From assembly GCF_014596725.1 (NCBI RefSeq), contig NZ_JACVEG010000008.1:1-32000 (forward strand): 32,000 nt of DNA, in the 5' to 3' direction. The notes below the pieces were generated by a model. It had not been told where the DNA came from. It did not search any database and worked only from the letters and a program-made list of their open reading frames with translations. The position numbers and the translations under genes are program-made. The DNA is from Vibrio sp. Y2-5 (GTDB taxonomy: Bacteria > Pseudomonadota > Gammaproteobacteria > Enterobacterales > Vibrionaceae). Positions 7,759-18,034 of the stretch are shown here, one piece after another (the first letter of the stretch is position 1; the number at the start of each line of letters is the position of its first letter).

Positions 7759-9855
7759 TTATCTGGGCATATTACACATAGATAGAAGAGAATCGAAGTT
7801 ATGTGGTTCCTTTTGAGCAAGTTGGAATAGCTCAACTTGATTTTTTATACTTCCATCACCTAGTTGGAACCCATCACAGTAAAAACGATAAGCGGCTTCA
7901 AGTACTGATACTGGTAATTTGGTACCTAAGAACTTATTGTCGATTTTTTCCTGTAAAGAAAATAAGTGTTCACTAATATCCGATACAGCCATTCCGAAAT
8001 CGTCTCCAAGCTGAGTAGCTAAAGAATAAATTTCTTGCTCACTGGTTACCGAAGTGATGTAAAACTGAGGGGTATCACTAGTAGAGCAAGAAAGACCTAT
8101 ATAACCAGGCTCGTTGACAACGGTTCGAATCATATGACCTAAACGCCTGTTTGTACTCTGTAGGGTCTTTGTAAGGTGCTTCTTACCCATTTGTACTAAG
8201 TTAGCTAAAGAATTCAACTCAGGCTCTGTGAACTCCTTTTTCTGGATTAGTTCATTGAAACTAATGTTAGCTAATGGGTTTGAAATGGTTGGTGTGGTTC
8301 TTCGTCCATCGTGAAGTTCTAACGCAGCCAGAAAGAGTTTTTGATCAACGGTTACAGAAATTTCTTCATTGGCACAATCTATGTAACAGGTATATCCATA
8401 TAGCTCTAGTGTATATTGAGCCTTATATTTGGTTTTTGTAGCATTAAAAATCTTAGTTTTGTTCTTTGTTGACCTAGACAAGCTATATAAAGCATCTTTC
8501 AAACGGTTTGCAAAATCTGACACTGAAGAACCTGTTCCAGAGTTTACTAGGAAGAAAGACTCAAAGCTGAATGTATAAGTGCCTTTTTGCCCCATACGAG
8601 TACGTAGGTAAAGATATAGCGCAAAGAAAAGGTCATCAACAGTGAGTATGGAAGGTGGCATTAACCAATGAAATTCTTCACAGAATAACGAATTAAAAAG
8701 CACTTCTGGAAGCTCAACAATATAGTCCATCGTGCTTGCTCCGAACTTACCTTTGCTATTCGTGTACTCAACGCGAGCAAGTTTACTGAAAGGCTTTATT
8801 TCAGTTTCTGTTACTGGCCTGTCACCATCGTTTTCACCAGTTTGCATCAAGGCATTCTTTAAAACAGAGATTTCCTCTTGTTTATGCGGAGTTAATTCCA
8901 CTATGGTTTTCCGAATTCTTTGTAGTGCTTCTCGGCATTCATTTCTCTGAATTCCGCCAAACCCTTTTTTTGTGTTTGGGTAGATTAGAGAAAGAATGTC
9001 ATCGATGTGAAGGTGAGTCCGGTTAACAGGAGGTCTTTTCTGGTAAAGGTAATCATTTAGGCGTGCAACATGTGCATGGAACGTAAGAGTATTTGCAGCA
9101 AAGTAATACTTCAAATCCTTAAATAGCATCACACTGTCTGAGTTGGTCCATGTTGAAACCTCGTAGTCTGTAAGCATGGTTATTTCTTGAGGACCCTGCT
9201 TAAGAGACACTGCCATGGTACCGGTTCTATTTTGTTGTTTATCTGTTGATGCAACTGATACCAGAATGTTCATCAAACCAGAATAGTTATCTTTGATTGC
9301 GATAACTCTTTTTTCATCAGTTGCGATATCAAATGAGCTTGGAATGTAGGAAATTTGATTTCTAATTGCTTGTTTATTTAACTTATTTAAAGCAGGTGAT
9401 AAGGATCCTTCAGATTTCAGAACTTGCAAATTATTACTTCCAGCGGAGTCGATGATAGAATCCAGATTGTCGAGAATTTGACCCGAATACGTAATCGCGG
9501 GATAAATCCGATCAGAATTAGAGTCTTTTACGGTGGGAGTTTCAAAAATGCCCTTAGCTATAAAGAAATGATTTAACAAATTACGACAAACTGTCGTTTT
9601 ACATAGTTCCGACTCAACAATTTCGCTCAATACGTGACTTAGTGGTATGACAGCTTTATGTTGATTCTTTCTAAGCAGTTCTGTAATAAACAGCAGATAT
9701 TTGCTTTCTAGTTTTAAGCCTGCATCATTTAAACGCTTGGATAGAGTAAAGAAGGGGATAACTAGATCATCATTTACGAAGAAAGGATTTAGAAACAATT
9801 TCATGTTCGGACTTGGTTTAAAAGTCTCGTCTAGCTCAATCTCTTTCATCAACAA
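7759..9855 (-). CDS. large Rep-like protein, candidate replication initiator (698 aa; ATG at 9849 is the third codon)
   Basis: Divergent from and adjacent to the GATC-rich AT stretch and the iteron array. The N-terminal PFFTLSK and the central GGIQRNECREALQRIRKTIVEL resemble, from memory, hallmark strings of plasmid initiator families (PFFSLSK; G-x-x-Y-x-x-L-x-x-AL-x-RL-x-x-T). Not verified by search. Confidence 0.5.
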   Translation of the reverse strand: MLMKEIELDETFKPSPNMKLFLNPFFVNDDLVIPFFTLSKRLNDAGLKLESKYLLFITELLRKNQHKAVIPLSHVLSEIVESELCKTTVCRNLLNHFFIAKGIFETPTVKDSNSDRIYPAITYSGQILDNLDSIIDSAGSNNLQVLKSEGSLSPALNKLNKQAIRNQISYIPSSFDIATDEKRVIAIKDNYSGLMNILVSVASTDKQQNRTGTMAVSLKQGPQEITMLTDYEVSTWTNSDSVMLFKDLKYYFAANTLTFHAHVARLNDYLYQKRPPVNRTHLHIDDILSLIYPNTKKGFGGIQRNECREALQRIRKTIVELTPHKQEEISVLKNALMQTGENDGDRPVTETEIKPFSKLARVEYTNSKGKFGASTMDYIVELPEVLFNSLFCEEFHWLMPPSILTVDDLFFALYLYLRTRMGQKGTYTFSFESFFLVNSGTGSSVSDFANRLKDALYSLSRSTKNKTKIFNATKTKYKAQYTLELYGYTCYIDCANEEISVTVDQKLFLAALELHDGRRTTPTISNPLANISFNELIQKKEFTEPELNSLANLVQMGKKHLTKTLQSTNRRLGHMIRTVVNEPGYIGLSCSTSDTPQFYITSVTSEQEIYSLATQLGDDFGMAVSDISEHLFSLQEKIDNKFLGTKLPVSVLEAAYRFYCDGFQLGDGSIKNQVELFQLAQKEPHNFDSLLSMCNMPR

Positions 9856-10657: not shown

Positions 10658-11617
10658 TTGTATAAATATACAGCGGTGGTTAGATTTTTACAACTTGAGG
10701 ATCAGCATTTGTCAAATGATAATGAATATTCAGGTACTACGGTTAGTAATCTAGAGGCAGCTTTCGATGTGATTACGGAAGGTAAAAAACTCCTATCTAC
10801 CAAGATTAAGAGAGGAGTACATAAAGCAACTCTATACACTTATGCCCCATGGAAAAGAAACAGCGTTCTTAATCATAGTATTGAGGTGACGGAAATAACC
10901 GGGTCTGAAGCCGTCAGGATTGCATGTAATATCTACAACTTTGAGCAAAAGCACGAAGGTATTACAGTACCAACCAAGTTCGTTGGTACAGTTGAACTCA
11001 ATCGCTGGGCCTTTGCTGATATAAGTAAACTAGTATCAGAAATAAATGAAGCTAAGAAAATCATAAAACACGGTGCTAGACACGCTATTCCGTCACGCCT
11101 AGAACGCAGGAAGTATTACGATTCCAAAGTAAAAGATGTTATTAGCTCAACTATATACCGACAAATTCCAATATTAAATAATGTTACATCGTCACATTTT
11201 CATTGGTGTGATACTCAAAAAGCACCAATCTTATTAAATGATAAAGAAGTAGAGCTAATTACCTCAAATGCTGCACCTACTGATCGAGAAACGTCAATTC
11301 ATCAGTACCAGCGGCTTGAGCGCTTCCACTCAAATCTTAATTCTCACGTTACAAACGGGAGCAACCTCTACCGTTTGATGAGTGTAAGGATTCATCCAGT
11401 TCATCAACTGGGGGTGCTAGAAGGGATGAAGAGTGAAAGAAAACTTCTCAAATTAAGTGTTCCAGTGTTGATTGTCCGAGCTCCAAAAGGGTATAAAGAA
11501 ACACCTCTTGAAACGTATGTTGCACCGTCATGGTCTACAGGTGATTCCAGTCCACAACAATTTCCAGACCAATACGGAAAATTACGCGGGCTTGGATTTG
11601 GTATTTATGTCGATTAA
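10658..11617 (+). CDS. hypothetical protein, 302-319 aa, start uncertain; alternative candidate initiator
   Basis: Long ORF with no in-frame ATG until near the C-terminus. Candidate starts are TTG 10658 (no SD) and TTG 10709 (GAGGA at 10697-10701, 7-nt spacer). No recognised motifs. Confidence 0.6.
   Translation: MYKYTAVVRFLQLEDQHLSNDNEYSGTTVSNLEAAFDVITEGKKLLSTKIKRGVHKATLYTYAPWKRNSVLNHSIEVTEITGSEAVRIACNIYNFEQKHEGITVPTKFVGTVELNRWAFADISKLVSEINEAKKIIKHGARHAIPSRLERRKYYDSKVKDVISSTIYRQIPILNNVTSSHFHWCDTQKAPILLNDKEVELITSNAAPTDRETSIHQYQRLERFHSNLNSHVTNGSNLYRLMSVRIHPVHQLGVLEGMKSERKLLKLSVPVLIVRAPKGYKETPLETYVAPSWSTGDSSPQQFPDQYGKLRGLGFGIYVD
10678..10689 (-). promoter_or_regulatory. exact inverted copy of the iteron 12-mer (candidate operator)
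   Basis: GGTTAGATTTTT is the reverse complement of AAAAATCTAACC. It lies about 11 nt downstream of an extended -10-like TGTATAAAT (10659-10667), inside the annotated 5' end of the 319-aa ORF. Confidence 0.6.
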
Positions 11618-15084: not shown

Positions 15085-15771
15085 ATGCCTTATTTACCAG
15101 CCTACATGGGCGAATTTTGGTACGGCATTGCCGAGTTAGCTTTTTGGGTTATTGCAGCAGTTATGCTTGGATACTTATTAAGAAGACTCGTGAATGAAGG
15201 TGTCTACATTGTTGTAGATATTTTTATGCGTTTACCGATGATGCTAGTAGATCAATTTATCTCTAGCATGCAGCAAATGTTCTATAAGTTCGGTGAAGAA
15301 CGAGCAAAACGTAAACGTAGTAAGGAGGAAACAGATACTGTTGAAGAAGAAACTGTTCATATGACAGAATCTCCTGCAGAATCGAAACCATCCAAAGGTT
15401 TTGCTCAGTACAACGTTAGCATGTCTGTTAAAGACATAGTCAACGAAGTACCGAAGCAACCTAAAGTGGCTAAACCTCAAGTAAAGCATGAAGCTGACTT
15501 GAGCCAACCTGCTTACCTACGTAAAGGTTTATTTGTTTCTGGTGCATTTGGAAATAAAGAAATCGTTGAAAATACTTTTGCTAAACAGCCTCTTCCAGAG
15601 ACTGTGACTAACCAAAGTAAACGTGATCAGTTACGTAAACAACGTGCTGAATTTGTGAAGAATAAATCTTCGGATAAAAATCCTGCAAAATTTCAGAGTC
15701 AATCTGGTTCACGCAGAAAAGCAATGCGCAATAGCACGTACTCATCTAATGGGACAGTGTCACACGCATAA
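15085..15771 (+). CDS. membrane-anchored Lys/Glu-rich protein (228 aa) carrying an FtsZ-C-terminal-peptide-like motif
   Basis: The start at ATG 15085 is supported by the SD module; the track's 15013 start has none. TM segment FWYGIAELAFWVIAAVMLGYLL. The rest looks low-complexity or disordered and contains DLSQPAYLRKGL. Confidence 0.7.
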   Translation: MPYLPAYMGEFWYGIAELAFWVIAAVMLGYLLRRLVNEGVYIVVDIFMRLPMMLVDQFISSMQQMFYKFGEERAKRKRSKEETDTVEEETVHMTESPAESKPSKGFAQYNVSMSVKDIVNEVPKQPKVAKPQVKHEADLSQPAYLRKGLFVSGAFGNKEIVENTFAKQPLPETVTNQSKRDQLRKQRAEFVKNKSSDKNPAKFQSQSGSRRKAMRNSTYSSNGTVSHA

Positions 15772-15780
15772 GTAATAAAA

Positions 15781-15807
15781 AAGAGGTAATGTATCATTAC
15801 CTCTTTT
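15781..15807. terminator. intrinsic terminator
   Basis: AAGAGGTAATG / CATTACCTCTT 11-bp stem flanked by an A-run and a T-run. Confidence 0.8.
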
Positions 15808-15878
15808 CCAAGTCTTAATCCCAATGGTACAGCATTGGAATTGAGATTTTTTAACCCGCACTGATGCGGATTTTAACC

Positions 15879-15909
15879 TGACGAAAGTCAACCTACATTA
15901 AGCAAGGAG
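15879..15909 (+). promoter_or_regulatory. GAAA mini-hairpin + AAGGAG module, copy F
   Basis: TGAC-GAAA-GTCA (15879-15890), ACCTACATTAAGC, AAGGAG (15904-15909), ATG at 15915. Preceded by CCGCA-CTGA-TGCGG (15856-15869). Confidence 0.7.
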
Positions 15910-15914
15910 TCAAA

Positions 15915-16415
15915 ATGAATAACTGTCTATTTTTAGAGGGTAATTTAGCCGAAGACTTATACATCTGCGGCAACGCTGATAATACTGTCGTGAAGTTAGC
16001 TGTGATCACTAATGAGACTTTTCGAGATAAGGCCACTGGTGAACAACGTCAAACTTCCGTTCGACACAGTGTTTCAGTGTTTGGATGGAAAGCTAAACAA
16101 ATCGTCGATAATGCGGAATATTTTCGTAAGGGCGCTTTGGTTCATGTGAAAGCAAAAATGGTTACTGTTAAATCTCATCGTTATGAAGGAATTTATGAGT
16201 ACCAGCCACATGTGGACAACACCACTTATACATCTGTAGATGCAGTCGTACGTTTTACAAAAAATACTGTTAACAGCAGTGGGTCACAACGCGCACAACC
16301 AGTTCGTCAACGTCCACAACCTACTCAGCAGTATTCGCCACGTAGTGAGAGCCTTCCTCAATCGAACGGTCAGCAAATGCCAGCACCGCAGTTTGAAGAA
16401 TACGAAGAATTTTAA
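15915..16415 (+). CDS. ssb: single-stranded DNA-binding protein
   Basis: The OB-fold region aligns by eye with E. coli SSB: ETFRDKATGEQRQ...HSVSVFGWKAKQ...YFRKGALVHVKAKM versus ESWRDKATGEMKE...HRVVLFGKLAEV...YLRKGSQVYIEGQL. Q/P-rich linker and acidic C-terminal tip FEEYEEF. Confidence 0.9.
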   Translation: MNNCLFLEGNLAEDLYICGNADNTVVKLAVITNETFRDKATGEQRQTSVRHSVSVFGWKAKQIVDNAEYFRKGALVHVKAKMVTVKSHRYEGIYEYQPHVDNTTYTSVDAVVRFTKNTVNSSGSQRAQPVRQRPQPTQQYSPRSESLPQSNGQQMPAPQFEEYEEF

Positions 16416-16455
16416 CTAAACCAATATGGAACGCTTGAATAGTGTTCCATTTATT

Positions 16456-16481
16456 CCCGAAAGGGCTAAGTAATCAAGGAG
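16456..16481 (+). promoter_or_regulatory. GAAA mini-hairpin + AAGGAG module, copy G
   Basis: CCC-GAAA-GGG (16456-16465), CTAAGTAATC, AAGGAG (16476-16481), ATG at 16490. Preceded by ATGGAAC ... GTTCCAT (16426-16450). Confidence 0.7.
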
Positions 16482-16489
16482 AAATACCC

Positions 16490-18034
16490 ATGTCAATGAT
16501 CAAAACATTTGCAACAAAATATGGTTTTAACGAAATAGAAGAGATGCTTTGTGTATTGAAGTCAAAATGCTTTCCTCACTACACCAAGTTCTGCTCTGAT
16601 TCTGTATTAACCTTAATTCAGGCGGCGTTAACACGTGATCTGAATCCGTTTAATCATGAAATCTATGTTGTAGCAGACAAAGATTTAAATGGTGAAGTCG
16701 ATGGATACAGAACACAAATCGGCATGTCTGGTTGCCTACGTATTGCAAACCGACAATCATCTTACCAGGGCGTAGAGTTTGTCTATCCTGACTCGGGAGA
16801 CACCATAACTATAAACGTAGAGAGCAAGCTACGTAACGGAACAGTTAATACCGTTACTTGCTTTGCTTGGTTAGAAGCTCGTGTTTATGTGGATGGAATT
16901 GAACGTCCATTTGTTGCACGTGAATACTTCGATGAGTGCTTTAGTGAAGTGAGTCCTGCTTGGATACAGAAACCAAAACGTCGTTTACGTCAGACTACAT
17001 TTGCTCAGGCTATCGAACTAGCTTTCTACGGTAAAGATAACCCTGAAAATTCTGTCTTGGAAATGAACATTTCAGAGAAAGAAATGAATGAGTTTGAGCA
17101 ACTGGTAAATACCGTTGGTTTCAAGTTTAAGTCTGAAACCAAACCTGAACCTGTAGATGGATCGCGTATCAAATCGAACGTTGATGAGTTAATTACGAAG
17201 CAACAAAGTGCTGCACAAGGACACAAACCTCTTGAGAAAGAGAATGTGGAATCTCATAGCGCTCCCGTTGCTAAAGAATTACCAAAAACATCTACCGCTG
17301 ATTCAGTGGAAGCTGAAACTGATAAATCAGTTGAGGCGGAAAAGCTAGAGACCGTTAACGAAGTTTCAACCCAATCACCTAGTGATAGTGATGAACCTGA
17401 CTTAACAGTACCTGCGTATATTCGCAAAGGTCTAGAGCTTAATAGCGAAAACCAAGCTGAAGCTGGCGCAAAGGTTCTTGATGAAGCTCAATCTGAAGCA
17501 GGAACCCAAGCAAATGATTCTGAAACAACTAAAACTGAAGAAGTCGAAAAAGAGGCTGACTCGGTAGAGGAAATTTCAGATGAGGATGCTGAACGCTATC
17601 AAGGTATGTTTGGGCAAGACACTGTTGAAGATGGTGAGACTGGATTTCAACCTCCATTTGTAATGGAAAATGAAATTCCTTTCAAAACAGATTCAGTAGT
17701 GACTGAGCCTGTAGTTGAAACTCAAGCTGTAGAGCCTGAGTCGACTACGCAAACGAATGTTGAATCTAGCTTGCCATCGGAAGTTATTGAGTATCTCAAT
17801 GCTACTATTAGCAAAGAGGATATTGATAACCACGATAGTATTATGTTTATCGACATGTTCATTGATAGCTATTCGTCAGATTCTGAAATGTTCAATGACG
17901 TCCAAGTTGCGGGCTTTGTTATGAGTTTACAAGGTAAAGATAAGCAATTCGCTATTCAGCGTCTGTTTAAGGAAAATGTAATCTCAGAAGAACAGCTTCT
18001 TAACTTTGTCGAAAAAGTGAACATAGCAGCGTAA
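16490..18034 (+). CDS. bet: lambda Bet (Red-beta)-family single-strand annealing protein with a long acidic extension and an extra C-terminal domain (514 aa)
   Basis: The N-terminal ~200 aa align by eye with lambda Bet. DLNPFNHEIYVV...GYRTQIGMSGCLRIANRQSSYQGVEF matches GLNPWTKEIYAF...VPVVGVDGWSRIINENQQFDGMDF. EYFDEC...IQKPKRRLRQTTFAQAIELAF matches EWMDEC...QSHPKRMLRHKAMIQCARLAF. The start is moved to ATG 16490 on the basis of the SD module. Confidence 0.85.
   Translation: MSMIKTFATKYGFNEIEEMLCVLKSKCFPHYTKFCSDSVLTLIQAALTRDLNPFNHEIYVVADKDLNGEVDGYRTQIGMSGCLRIANRQSSYQGVEFVYPDSGDTITINVESKLRNGTVNTVTCFAWLEARVYVDGIERPFVAREYFDECFSEVSPAWIQKPKRRLRQTTFAQAIELAFYGKDNPENSVLEMNISEKEMNEFEQLVNTVGFKFKSETKPEPVDGSRIKSNVDELITKQQSAAQGHKPLEKENVESHSAPVAKELPKTSTADSVEAETDKSVEAEKLETVNEVSTQSPSDSDEPDLTVPAYIRKGLELNSENQAEAGAKVLDEAQSEAGTQANDSETTKTEEVEKEADSVEEISDEDAERYQGMFGQDTVEDGETGFQPPFVMENEIPFKTDSVVTEPVVETQAVEPESTTQTNVESSLPSEVIEYLNATISKEDIDNHDSIMFIDMFIDSYSSDSEMFNDVQVAGFVMSLQGKDKQFAIQRLFKENVISEEQLLNFVEKVNIAA

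What the first reader, a model, noticed from the sequence alone, without database searches (positions are those of the whole stretch)
15496..17434. Two adjacent, otherwise unrelated proteins share a D-L-x-x-P-A-Y-[LI]-R-K-G-L motif resembling the FtsZ C-terminal peptide
The membrane-anchored protein (15085-15771) contains DLSQPAYLRKGL (nt 15496-15531). The Bet-like protein contains DLTVPAYIRKGL (nt 17399-17434). In both cases the motif is embedded in acidic, low-complexity sequence that looks disordered. The two DNA stretches differ at many synonymous positions, so the peptide appears to be what is conserved, not a recent duplication.

The conserved C-terminal peptide of E. coli FtsZ is D-Y-L-D-I-P-A-F-L-R-K-Q-A-D. 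It is the docking site for FtsA, ZipA, MinC, ZapD and SlmA. A P-A-[FY]-[LI]-R-K core preceded by D-[LI] is therefore a plausible mimic. Possible roles are tethering these proteins to the divisome or membrane, or transiently competing with FtsZ for its anchors to delay division while the element establishes. The motif might equally bind an element-encoded partner.
Basis: partly seen in the sequence, partly recalled or inferred. Interest (0 to 1): 0.65.

Follow-up and report, generated by a model that had tools for sequence, protein, structure and literature searches.

The report
Plasmid proteins carrying an FtsZ-tail mimic
Two neighbouring proteins of a Vibrio-type conjugative plasmid carry the same 12-residue peptide, which closely resembles the tail that the cell-division protein FtsZ uses to dock onto its partners; the same peptide sits on a small membrane protein of unknown function in related plasmids, including more than 800 IncC-type conjugative plasmids, so these plasmids may plug into the host division machinery.

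Summary
DLSQPAYLRKGL (nt 15496-15531) and DLTVPAYIRKGL (nt 17399-17434) are the only two such peptides in the window. Both lie in disordered regions of otherwise unrelated proteins, and their codons differ at synonymous sites.

The window is a Vibrio-type MOBH/MPF_G conjugative plasmid. Its order (TM protein, ssb, bet-like) parallels the IncC "hde" operon (vcrx087, 089/090, ssb, bet, exo).

In six other plasmid lineages, the small membrane protein at the head of the ssb/bet module carries the same motif. Nothing else in these proteins aligns. IncC vcrx087, published as "unknown function", ends DYLEIPTYLRKGKDLVW. The E. coli FtsZ tail is DYLDIPAFLRKQAD. A Pseudomonas plasmid copy has RR, as Pseudomonas FtsZ does.

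A blind scan of 596 Gb for the window motif found one in-frame coding hit: the C-terminus of a Verrucomicrobial FtsZ.

The closest Bet/RecT relatives lack the motif, so that copy is lineage-specific.

Best reading: a conserved short linear motif that mimics the FtsZ tail and docks on FtsA, ZipA, MinC or SlmA. It may act as a membrane-tethered decoy, by analogy with lambda kil next to gam-bet-exo. Binding is untested, and I found no prior description.

The parts
15085..15771 (+). Protein A: a 228-aa bitopic membrane protein. It is the positional counterpart of IncC vcrx087, the first gene of the ssb-bet module.
   Evidence: ORF and RBS. No Pfam or NCBIfam family. Only itself found among 5.8e9 proteins. 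Synteny with L008, L010, L009, L015, L012 and L031.
15115..15192 (+). N-terminal transmembrane segment (aa 11-36), followed by RR. This predicts N-out/C-in topology, so the motif faces the cytoplasm.
   Evidence: Kyte-Doolittle scan. AF2 helix 4-89 with pLDDT >90. Topology is inferred from the positive-inside rule.
15496..15531 (+). Motif copy 1: DLSQPAYLRKGL (aa 138-149), in a disordered cytoplasmic region.
15776..15810 (.). 16-bp stem-loop between protein A and ssb. It is terminator- or attenuator-like.
   Evidence: (scored as a terminator only on the minus strand) and sequence.
15915..16415 (+). Plasmid SSB (166 aa) with an atypical acidic C-terminus, ...QFEEYEEF.
   Evidence: Pfam SSB E = 8.5e-9. 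NCBIfam.
16490..18034 (+). Bet/RecT-like single-strand annealing protein (514 aa). It has a RecT domain at aa 23-199, a ~190-aa disordered acidic linker, and a C-terminal helical domain.
   Evidence: Pfam RecT E = 2.8e-10. tblastn to IncC/SXT-type Bet covers the N-terminal ~200 aa only, at 24-28% identity. AF2 secondary structure.
17207..17776 (+). Disordered acidic linker of the Bet-like protein (aa 240-429).
   Evidence: No predicted secondary structure. Homologues have equally long but unalignable acidic or repeat linkers.
17399..17434 (+). Motif copy 2: DLTVPAYIRKGL (aa 304-315).
   Evidence: Top-scoring match to the E. coli FtsZ tail in the whole window.
17777..18019 (+). C-terminal helical domain of the Bet-like protein (aa 430-510), with a weak sigma-factor-like match.
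   Evidence: AF2 helices, pLDDT 50-74. NCBIfam SigF-like hit at aa 406-497, E = 6e-6, far below the family cut-off.

Best explanation
The shared peptide is a functional short linear motif (SLiM) with consensus [DE]-[LM]-x-x-P-[AT]-[FY]-[LIM]-R-x-G-[LIVK]. It mimics the conserved C-terminal peptide of the host's FtsZ.

Protein A is the local version of a previously uncharacterised class of plasmid proteins that includes IncC vcrx087. These have an N-terminal membrane anchor, a fast-evolving disordered cytoplasmic linker, and the FtsZ-tail-like peptide. The gene sits at the head of the ssb-bet(-exo) recombination and 'host defence evasion' module.

Proposed mechanism (inferred):
- The membrane-tethered peptide docks into the sites on host FtsA and ZipA that normally hold the FtsZ tail. 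MinC, SlmA, ZapD and ClpX are other possible targets.
- It then acts either as a decoy or as a localisation tag.
- As a decoy, it would loosen or delay Z-ring assembly while incoming plasmid DNA is being repaired and established.
- In this plasmid lineage the Bet-like recombinase has acquired the same peptide in its linker. It would therefore be drawn to, or compete for, the same host hub.

Shown: the motif, its context, its conservation across plasmids, and its resemblance to FtsZ tails. Inferred: the binding partner and the physiological outcome.
For: **1. The motif is conserved where nothing else is.**
- Positional counterparts of protein A are small N-terminal-TM proteins just upstream of ssb or recT. 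They carry:
  - EEEDLSSPAFIRAGIP (Vibrio sp. SCSIO 43155 plasmid, L008 8247-8879)
  - SELDVPTFLRKGIF (pTHAF190c_c, L010 32292-33008, with ssb next)
  - NYDIPAFMRDAV (V. breoganii plasmid, L009 32094-32504)
  - AEMAIPTYIRLGVEL (pVgang, L015 40521-40958, with RecT next)
  - DYLEIPTYLRKGKDLVW* (IncC, L012 4910-5230)
  - DHLEKPTYLRRGLLISV* (P. luteola megaplasmid, L031 5873-6238)
  - Sources.
- tblastn and hhalign find no similarity outside the motif.
- In 17 cluster representatives of the IncC family, E-I-P-x-Y-x-R-x-G and the terminal W are at least 90% conserved while the linker drifts. Variants include EIPAYLRKG and DVPAYLRKG.
- The family is present in 825 PLSDB plasmids.

**2. Enrichment.**
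- There are 6 core matches in 296 kb of these plasmids, against 0.13 expected from shuffles. There are none in the 59-kb ICEHin1056 control or in two lambda-like phage-plasmids.
- The regex was refined post hoc.

**3. Resemblance to real FtsZ tails.**
- The E. coli tail is DYLDIPAFLRKQAD. It binds ZipA, FtsA, MinC, ZapD, ClpX and SlmA (PMC4117426).
- IncC vcrx087 shares DYL-IP--LRK with it and scores 50, against 25 or less for the best hits in the loci without a motif protein.
- The window motif has an exact counterpart at the C-terminus of a Verrucomicrobial FtsZ-family protein, found by a blind 596-Gb scan.
- The Pseudomonas plasmid copy has R-R, as does FtsZ of PDB 2VAW (...DYLDIPAFLRRQAD). 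Enterobacterial and Vibrio plasmid copies have R-K, as do E. coli and Klebsiella FtsZ. This is a single data point for host tracking.

**4. Context.**
- vcrx087 is the first gene of the operon vcrx087-089-090-ssb-bet-exo, whose other genes act in the recipient on plasmid entry (PMC7498323).
- Its promoter is both constitutive and AcaCD-activated, and the gene is described as 'of unknown function' (PMC8373056).
- Lambda places a ZipA-dependent FtsZ inhibitor, kil, in the same kind of operon: ral-ea10-cIII-kil-gam-bet-exo.

**5. Geometry.**
- The motif lies in a disordered region on the predicted cytoplasmic side of a membrane anchor. That is where FtsA and ZipA sit.

**6. No candidate partner in the window.**
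- No window protein resembles FtsA, ZipA, MinC, SlmA or ZapD, so no element-encoded receptor is evident in the 32 kb.
Against: - No binding data exist and none could be computed here.
- The residue equivalent to FtsZ I374, reported as critical for ZipA, FtsA and MinC, is Q in protein A and S in the L008 counterpart.
- The K380 equivalent is A, L or D in some plasmids.
- A Gly after R-x is conserved in most of the plasmid motif copies (8 of 9 instances) but is absent from gammaproteobacterial FtsZ (Q381). This may indicate a specificity of its own.
- Against the E. coli tail, protein A's copy (18) and the L008, L009 and pVgang copies fall within background. Only the Bet-like, L010 and IncC copies exceed it.
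- In the window both copies are internal, with 79 and 199 residues following, rather than C-terminal.
- The closest RecT/Bet relatives lack the motif.
- The TnSeq that defined the hde genes flagged vcrx089-093, not vcrx087. Loss of vcrx087 therefore had no strong transfer phenotype under those conditions.
Confidence: 0.5

Rival explanations
1. The motif is a real, conserved docking peptide, but its partner is not an FtsZ-tail receptor. The partner would be an element-encoded protein (for example another product of the hde/ssb-bet module, the relaxosome or the coupling protein) or a host replication or repair factor. Protein A and the Bet-like protein would be brought to the same place, for instance the membrane site where transferred ssDNA enters. 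The likeness to FtsZ would be convergence on a generic 'acidic-aliphatic-Pro-aromatic-aliphatic-Arg' helix-capping peptide.
For: - The conserved Gly after R-x, and the polar residues at the I374-equivalent position in protein A and L008, depart from gammaproteobacterial FtsZ.
- The motif is tied to one genomic neighbourhood, the head of the ssb/bet module of MOBH plasmids.
- DNA-processing proteins carry it or something like it. These are the window Bet-like protein and the SSB-like protein of L009, which ends ...GIPVFVRQESNVQ.
- Only 32 kb of a ~196-kb contig could be inspected for partners.
Against: - The plasmids carrying the motif have different transfer machineries: MPF_G in the window, L008, L009, L010 and pVgang, and MPF_F in IncC.
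- The IncC tail copies not just the core but the gammaproteobacterial 'DYL-IP' prefix.
- There is an R-R versus R-K match to the host FtsZ.
- The only in-frame genomic hit for the window motif is an FtsZ C-terminus.
Confidence: 0.28
2. The peptide acts mainly as a recognition tag for ClpXP or another protease or adaptor, and so sets the lifetime of protein A and the Bet-like protein. The FtsZ tail region is itself one of the ClpX recognition sites.
For: ClpX is listed among the proteins that bind the FtsZ tail (PMC4117426; PMC3983244 listed). Both window copies lie in exposed disordered regions.
Against: The conserved part of the plasmid motif is the hydrophobic P-x-[FY]-[LIM]-R core. It is not the terminal RKQAD-type residues that, from my recollection of the ClpXP-FtsZ work, are used by ClpX. 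The window copies are internal. A membrane anchor plus a long linker is an odd design for a simple degron.
Confidence: 0.07
3. Coincidence, or a neutral relic. An old ~100-nt segment was copied between neighbouring genes, and the likeness to FtsZ is a post hoc match to one of many known peptides.
For: - Identity count alone is only 9/12, against 7-8 in shuffles.
- The BLASTP alignment extends upstream to a shared VNEV..Q, which is compatible with an old segmental copy.
- The Bet-like copy is not found in any relative.
- AAA+ ATPases contain a similar string in a folded context, LDPAYLRKGRID (L007).
Against: - The motif is preserved in at least seven otherwise unalignable plasmid lineages and is nearly invariant within the IncC family.
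- Synonymous differences with a preserved peptide argue for selection.
- There are 6 observed core matches against 0.13 expected.
- Neither window protein has an AAA+ domain.
Confidence: 0.05

Closest known systems
Conserved C-terminal peptide of FtsZ (E. coli DYLDIPAFLRKQAD383), the docking site for FtsA, ZipA, MinC, SlmA, ZapD and ClpX
   Same: - Same core: an acidic residue, an aliphatic residue, P-[AT]-[FY]-[LIM]-R-[KR].
- It is presented on a long disordered linker.
- IncC vcrx087 matches 9 of the first 11 tail residues.
- A Verrucomicrobial FtsZ carries the window's exact variant, DLxxPAYIRKGL.
   Different: - It is not attached to an FtsZ GTPase domain.
- In the window it is internal rather than C-terminal.
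- Y replaces F.
- Gly follows R-K where gammaproteobacterial FtsZ has Gln.
- The I374-equivalent residue is Q in protein A.
- Binding to any FtsZ partner is untested.
vcrx087 of IncC plasmid pVCR94, whose SXT/R391 counterpart lies behind promoter Ps089. It is the first gene of the hde operon and is published as 'gene of unknown function'.
   Same: - Small protein with an N-terminal membrane anchor, a variable linker, and the same P-[AT]-Y-[LI]-R-K-G motif.
- Same position at the head of an ssb-bet module on a MOBH conjugative plasmid.
   Different: - No detectable sequence similarity outside the 12-residue motif.
- Protein A is twice as long, and ~80 residues follow its motif.
- The window operon lacks the vcrx089/090 anti-restriction genes and exo in the visible region.
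- Whether SXT s089 itself carries the motif was not checked.
Phage and prophage division inhibitors linked to recombination modules: lambda Kil (kil-gam-bet-exo). From memory, also Rac KilR next to recET and Qin DicB.
   Same: - A small, membrane-associated product of a mobile element.
- It is encoded directly beside ssb/bet/exo-type genes.
- It is proposed to interfere with Z-ring assembly through the FtsZ-ZipA/FtsA interface. Kil is ZipA-dependent.
   Different: - No sequence similarity (no Pfam hit).
- Kil binds FtsZ itself and is not a tail mimic.
- Division inhibition by protein A or vcrx087 is a hypothesis only.
ZipA (architecture only)
   Same: Bitopic N-out/C-in membrane protein with a long charged or disordered cytoplasmic linker and a terminal division-protein interaction module (general knowledge; topology of protein A inferred).
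   Different: ZipA carries a folded domain that receives the FtsZ tail. Protein A carries a copy of the tail itself, so it would be a competitor of FtsZ, not of ZipA.
RecT/Red-beta single-strand annealing proteins of IncC/SXT (Bet)
   Same: The N-terminal ~200 aa of the window protein match Pfam RecT (E = 2.8e-10) and IncC/SXT-type Bet at 24-28% identity. It is adjacent to a plasmid ssb.
   Different: It has a ~300-aa extension with a disordered acidic linker and a helical C-terminal domain. The FtsZ-tail-like motif in the linker is not seen in any other RecT/Bet examined.

Membership tests
FtsZ conserved C-terminal peptide (as a motif class) | Core sequence: acidic residue, aliphatic residue(s), then P-x-[FY]-[LIM]-[RK]-[RKNQ] | tested here: met
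   Copy 1 is D-L-S-Q-P-A-Y-L-R-K and copy 2 is D-L-T-V-P-A-Y-I-R-K. They were compared with E. coli DYLDIPAFLRKQAD, 2VAW ...DIPAFLRRQAD and the L002 FtsZ tail ...DLDTPAYIRKGL. Caveat: the residue before Pro is Q in copy 1.
FtsZ conserved C-terminal peptide (as a motif class) | Presented at the end of an intrinsically disordered linker | tested here: inconclusive
   Both copies lie in regions without predicted structure. However, they are internal, with 79 and 199 residues following. In the IncC and P. luteola counterparts the motif is C-terminal.
FtsZ conserved C-terminal peptide (as a motif class) | Binds FtsA, ZipA, MinC, SlmA or ZapD in the FtsZ-tail site | not testable with these tools
   No complex prediction or binding assay was available.
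FtsZ protein family | Tubulin/FtsZ GTPase domain | tested here: not met
   Pfam finds no Tubulin or FtsZ_C domain in either window protein. The L002 control has both.
vcrx087-like plasmid proteins (head of the hde / ssb-bet operon) | Small protein with an N-terminal transmembrane anchor followed by a basic stretch | tested here: met
   TM at aa 11-36 followed by RR. The same is true of the L008, L009, L010, L012 and L015 proteins, and by inspection of the L031 sequence.
vcrx087-like plasmid proteins (head of the hde / ssb-bet operon) | Cytoplasmic tail bearing [DE]-[LIVM]-(x)-x-P-[AT]-[FY]-[LIM]-R-x-G | tested here: met
vcrx087-like plasmid proteins (head of the hde / ssb-bet operon) | Gene lies at the head of (upstream of, same strand as) the plasmid ssb and/or bet/recT genes on a MOBH-type conjugative plasmid; directly upstream except in the IncC-type operons, where 087 is separated from ssb/bet by the 088-090 genes | tested here: met
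   Window order: A (15085), ssb (15915), bet-like (16490). L008, L010, L009, L015, L012 and L031. Operon structure in pVCR94.
vcrx087-like plasmid proteins (head of the hde / ssb-bet operon) | Sequence homology beyond the motif | tested here: inconclusive
   hhalign of the IncC family profile against protein A aligns only the 12 motif columns (probability 22%). tblastn gives nothing at E <= 1. Common descent versus convergence is unresolved. I file protein A as a positional and functional analogue.
RecT / Red-beta (Bet) single-strand annealing proteins | RecT-family domain above the curated threshold | tested here: met
   PF03837 scores 40.5 bits against a cut-off of 24, at aa 23-199. The lambda Bet equivalog TIGR01913 scores 47 bits, below its 77-bit cut-off. 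The protein is therefore RecT-family, not a lambda Bet equivalog.
Lambda Kil-type division inhibitors | Sequence membership in a known Kil/KilR/DicB family | tested here: not met
   Protein A has no Pfam or NCBIfam hit. The resemblance is contextual only.
AAA+ ATPase sensor-2 region ('DPAxLRxGR') | Motif embedded in an AAA+ ATPase fold | tested here: not met
   The viral hit L007 (LDPAYLRKGRID) lies in a P-loop ATPase-like ORF. Neither window protein has an AAA domain.

The most novel reading that the evidence does not exclude
Conjugative plasmids of the MOBH group include the IncC/IncA resistance plasmids, probably SXT/R391 ICEs, and a set of Vibrio and Pseudomonas megaplasmids. On this reading they encode an unrecognised class of host-interface proteins, membrane-tethered decoys of the FtsZ C-terminal tail, as the first product of their early 'host defence evasion' operon.

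By occupying the tail-binding sites of FtsA and ZipA (or MinC and SlmA), they would impose a short, SOS-independent division checkpoint in the new transconjugant. During that time ssb-bet-exo would repair and establish the incoming DNA. This is the plasmid counterpart of lambda kil beside gam-bet-exo.

In the window's lineage the recombinase itself has captured the same peptide. That would couple recombination to the division apparatus or the membrane.
Probability: 0.3. Interest if true: 0.85.

Novelty: new variant of a known kind. Interest (0 to 1): 0.72.

Why it matters
- **A concrete hypothesis for an uncharacterised gene.** It gives a cheap, testable hypothesis for a conserved gene of unknown function, vcrx087. 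That gene heads the most strongly AcaCD-bound operon of IncC plasmids and is present in more than 800 sequenced conjugative plasmids.
- **A new mechanism, if confirmed.** To my knowledge this would be the first case of a mobile element copying the FtsZ tail itself in order to reach the hub that FtsA, ZipA, MinC, SlmA and ZapD share. Known elements instead make a protein that binds FtsZ.
- **A recurring logic.** Such a mechanism would link plasmid establishment to control of host division. It would explain why recombination modules of unrelated elements (lambda and these plasmids; Rac from memory) keep a division-related gene beside bet/exo.
- **A natural sequence library.** The natural variation (F/Y, A/T, RK/RR, and the residues before Pro) is a ready-made panel of tail variants for dissecting partner specificity.

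Tried and rejected
- **Ordinary homologue searches for conservation.**
  - Protein A has no relative in 5.8e9 proteins or by tblastn in PLSDB.
  - The word-indexed search with the Bet-like protein returned nothing.
  - The exhaustive search gave only RecT domains at 35% identity or less, none with the motif.
  - The lead came instead from synteny: TraC and RctB tblastn led to related Vibrio plasmids.
- **Exact-contig lookup of protein A.** Not on record.
- **Strict motif pattern scans.**
  - Metagenomes: 4 hits with no relation to this element (short or wrong-frame ORFs, plus one unrelated protein seen on two contigs).
  - Viral contigs: 1 hit in an AAA+-like ATPase.
  - No relatives of this element were found.
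- **Recent duplication.** Rejected on codon differences and random flanks.
- **Universal feature of MPF_G ICEs.** Rejected, because ICEHin1056 has none. It is also absent from lambda-like phage-plasmids of Pseudomonas and Acinetobacter.
- **Element-encoded FtsA, ZipA, MinC or actin-like receptor in the window.** None was found by Pfam or PDB sequence search.
- **PDB sequence search with the motif region.** No hit.
- **Literature.** No paper describes an FtsZ-tail mimic on a plasmid or phage, and 'IPTYLRK' appears in no paper. Searches for the T. maritima and Pseudomonas tail strings also returned nothing. The Pseudomonas tail was taken from PDB 2VAW instead.
- **Other known peptide motifs.** Clamp-binding (QL[SD]LF) and the SSB tip (DDDIPF-COOH) were considered from memory and rejected, because the sequences do not fit.

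Full report
**1. The observation**

- Translating the stated coordinates gives DLSQPAYLRKGL (15496-15531) and DLTVPAYIRKGL (17399-17434).
- The first is aa 138-149 of a 228-aa ORF, 15085-15771, with an ATG preceded by AAGGGGA. The second is aa 304-315 of a 514-aa ORF, 16490-18034, with an ATG preceded by AAGGAG.
- A six-frame scan finds PA[FYW][LIVM][RK][RK] only at these two places in the 32 kb.
- BLASTP of the two proteins aligns only a 33-column stretch ending in the motif (E = 3e-5 for that one comparison).
- At the DNA level 25/36 positions match. Five of the 9 identical residues use different codons, and the flanks are at random identity. This is not a recent duplication. The alignment also catches a shared VNEV..Q about 20 residues upstream, so an old segmental copy between the neighbouring genes is possible.
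- Counted as identities in a 12-mer, the signal is modest: 9, against 7-8 in 30 shuffles of all window proteins.
- The stronger evidence against chance is rarity. The back-translated pattern occurs twice in 596 Gb of genomes and four times in the metagenome collection.
- The motif also recurs in other plasmids (section 3).

**2. What the window is**

- Pfam annotation shows the backbone of a conjugative plasmid:
  - an RctB-like initiator (7759-9855, minus strand);
  - a Tus-like protein, a DEAD-box helicase, SSB (15915-16415) and the RecT/Bet-like protein;
  - a topoisomerase III-like enzyme, a DsbC-like thioredoxin, and a run of ICEclc/PAPI-1-type (MPF_G) transfer genes ending in TraC.
- There is no near-identical DNA in PLSDB or the phage collection.
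- tblastn with TraC and the RctB-like protein points to Vibrionaceae plasmids.
- The plasmid of Vibrio sp. SCSIO 43155 (L008) has the same gene order: Tus-like, helicase, two small ORFs, a small membrane protein, a long RecT, two small ORFs, topoisomerase, thioredoxin, DUF4400, RAQPRD and onward.

**3. The motif is conserved where nothing else is**

Ordinary homologue searches failed.
- Protein A has no relative among 5.8e9 proteins or in PLSDB.
- The best relatives of the Bet-like protein share only the RecT domain at 35% identity or less, and none carries the motif.

Reading the syntenic genes directly gave a different picture. The small N-terminal-TM protein just upstream of ssb or recT carries the following:

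| Plasmid (locus) | Motif region |
|---|---|
| Vibrio sp. SCSIO 43155 (L008) | EEEDLSSPAFIRAGIP |
| pTHAF190c_c (L010, ssb follows) | SELDVPTFLRKGIF |
| V. breoganii plasmid (L009) | NYDIPAFMRDAV |
| pVgang (L015, RecT follows) | AEMAIPTYIRLGVEL |
| IncC pKHM-1 (L012) | DYLEIPTYLRKGKDLVW* |
| P. luteola megaplasmid (L031, IncC-like module) | DHLEKPTYLRRGLLISV* |

- These proteins cannot be aligned with protein A outside the motif. tblastn gives nothing at E <= 1, and hhalign aligns 12 columns only.
- The IncC protein occurs in 825 PLSDB plasmids.
- In an alignment of 17 cluster representatives, E-I-P-x-Y-x-R-x-G and the terminal W are at least 90% conserved while the linker drifts. Variants such as EIPAYLRKG and DVPAYLRKG bridge to the window's PAYLRKG.
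- Across 296 kb of these plasmids there are 6 core matches against 0.13 expected from shuffles. There are none in the 59-kb ICEHin1056 or in two lambda-like phage-plasmids. The regex was refined after seeing the data.
- It is failed for the Bet-like protein. The long RecT proteins of L008 and pVgang, P0002 and IncC Bet have comparable acidic or repeat linkers but no motif.

**4. Is it FtsZ-like?**

- The E. coli tail is DYLDIPAFLRKQAD383. It binds ZipA, FtsA, MinC, ZapD, ClpX and SlmA, with I374 and L378 critical (PMC4117426).
- Three blind checks support the likeness.
  - **Genome scan.** Of the two genomic matches to the window pattern in 596 Gb, one contains a stop codon. The other is the C-terminus of a Verrucomicrobial protein with Tubulin and FtsZ_C domains...GADLDTPAYIRKGLKLSSSVLRNSP*. 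The window's exact variant is therefore used as a real FtsZ tail.
  - **Tail scan.** Sliding the E. coli 14-mer over every ORF of 60 aa or more ranks the Bet-like copy first in the window (27), the L010 protein first (32 against 21) and IncC vcrx087 first (50 against 23). The best scores in the loci without a motif protein (L011, L013, L014, L016, L017) are 21-25.
  - **Host match.** The Pseudomonas plasmid copy has R-R, as does FtsZ of PDB 2VAW (...DYLDIPAFLRRQAD). I recall 2VAW as P. aeruginosa FtsZ. The enterobacterial and Vibrio copies have R-K, as do the E. coli and Klebsiella chains. This is one data point for host tracking.
- There are limits to the likeness.
  - Protein A's own copy scores 18, and the L008, L009 and pVgang copies fall within background, against the E. 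coli tail.
  - The I374-equivalent residue is Q in protein A and S in L008.
  - A Gly after R-x is typical of the plasmid motif but not of gammaproteobacterial FtsZ.
  - The window copies are internal.

**5. Anatomy**

- Protein A has one TM segment (aa 11-36) followed by RR. AF2 gives a confident helix at 4-89 and a disordered remainder. By the positive-inside rule the motif is cytoplasmic.
- The six counterparts examined (L031 by inspection) have the same layout.
- In the Bet-like protein, the RecT domain (aa 23-199) is followed by about 190 residues without predicted structure. This stretch contains the motif. A helical C-terminal domain follows (the model is low-confidence).
- A 16-bp hairpin lies between protein A and ssb.
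- No window protein resembles FtsA, ZipA, MinC, SlmA or ZapD.

**6. What is known about the family**

- The IncC protein is vcrx087 of pVCR94.
- It is co-transcribed with vcrx089, bet and downstream genes from Pvcrx087. The operon's vcrx089-090 genes give anti-restriction, and ssb-bet-exo give CRISPR-Cas evasion in the recipient. The TnSeq screen flagged 089-093 but not 087 (PMC7498323).
- Its promoter is both constitutive and AcaCD/SgaCD-activated, and the gene is called 'of unknown function' (PMC8373056).
- The SXT counterpart promoter is Ps089 (PMC4542580).
- Neither Pfam nor NCBIfam has a family for any of these proteins.
- Full-text searches found no description of an FtsZ-tail mimic on a mobile element.

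**7. Mechanism proposed**

- The motif is a selected SLiM (about 0.9 for the membrane protein).
- The most economical partner is whatever binds the FtsZ tail in the host. FtsA and ZipA are favoured because they, like protein A, sit on the cytoplasmic face of the membrane.
- A tethered copy of the tail would compete with FtsZ and delay Z-ring assembly, or would carry its bearer to the ring.
- The context favours a checkpoint-like role. Lambda places ral (restriction alleviation), ea10, kil (a ZipA-dependent FtsZ inhibitor), gam, bet and exo in one operon. The IncC operon pairs 087 with anti-restriction, ssb, bet and exo.
- The Bet-like copy would put the recombinase on the same hub. It is lineage-specific and may derive from the neighbouring gene.
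- Overall confidence that the partner is an FtsZ-tail receptor is about 0.5. Confidence that the outcome is a division delay is about 0.3.
- Rivals:
  - a different, possibly element-encoded partner (0.28);
  - a protease tag (0.07);
  - coincidence or a neutral relic (0.05).

**8. Verdict**

Resemblance and conservation hold, but binding is untested.
- This is not a member of any described family. It works, on the sequence evidence, like an FtsZ tail displayed by a plasmid membrane protein.
- I rate it a new variant of a known kind (mobile-element proteins that target the division apparatus), with a new proposed mechanism (tail mimicry).
- Its interest is raised by its presence in IncC plasmids, where the genetics to test it already exist.

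Noticed in passing
window 17705-17980 (Bet-like aa 406-497); L009 34190-34942; L010 34426-35055: The C-terminal helical domain of the Bet-like protein gives a weak sigma-factor (SigF-like) match (E = 6e-6, far below the cut-off). Related plasmids have a separate sigma-70-family or HTH gene just downstream of ssb. This may be a fused or shared DNA- or RNAP-binding module.
   Followed up: no
window 15915-16415: The plasmid SSB ends ...PAPQFEEYEEF instead of the canonical acidic DDDIPF tip. This suggests a private SSB-tail/partner pairing, for example with the Bet-like C-terminal domain.
   Followed up: no
window 7759-9855 (-) and 10658-11617 (+); L008 3287-4168: The plasmid combines an RctB-like initiator (the Vibrio chromosome-2 type) with its own Tus-like terminus-binding protein. 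The Tus-like gene is conserved in the syntenic Vibrio plasmid.
   Followed up: partly
L009 29688-30239 and 32922-33776 (V. breoganii plasmid NZ_CP016179.1): A second multi-TM protein carries ...VIPEFLRSQVRE. It was the top hit of the E. coli FtsZ-tail scan in that locus. The SSB-like protein next to the motif protein ends ...EPGIPVFVRQESNVQ*. These are possible further tail-like peptides on the same plasmid.
   Followed up: no
L018 2423-2448, L022 4597-4622, L020 2111-2136 (IMG/VR contigs): Some phage contigs encode FtsZ-tail-like peptides. A large protein has ...QAQYEIPAYLRKGEMTP in a Pro/Ala-rich region (two related contigs). A 141-aa ORF has ...EPTDIPTYLRKGIELLK. About half a dozen chance hits were expected for this pattern, so these need checking.
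   Followed up: partly
L028 (lambda 31000-35000) compared with L012 4910-10051: The lambda operon ral-ea10-cIII-kil-gam-bet-exo and the IncC operon 087-089/090-ssb-bet-exo have parallel functional slots: anti-restriction, ssb-like, a division-related small protein, and recombination.
   Followed up: partly
window 15085-15117: Protein A begins MPYLPAYMGEF. This is a partial 'LPAYM' echo of the motif core, lying before the TM segment on the predicted periplasmic side. It is probably chance.
   Followed up: no
L007 9457-9488 (IMG/VR contig): An AAA+-like ATPase ORF contains LDPAYLRKGRID. Similar strings can therefore occur inside folded AAA+ sensor-2 regions, which is a caveat for naive motif scans.
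   Followed up: partly
L008 9001-10476; P0002; L015 41361-42725: RecT proteins of this plasmid group all carry very long acidic linkers. Some contain perfect tandem peptide repeats (EEEILQGEAPES x ~9; PVVTEEVVTES x ~6). A small helical C-terminal domain follows.
   Followed up: no
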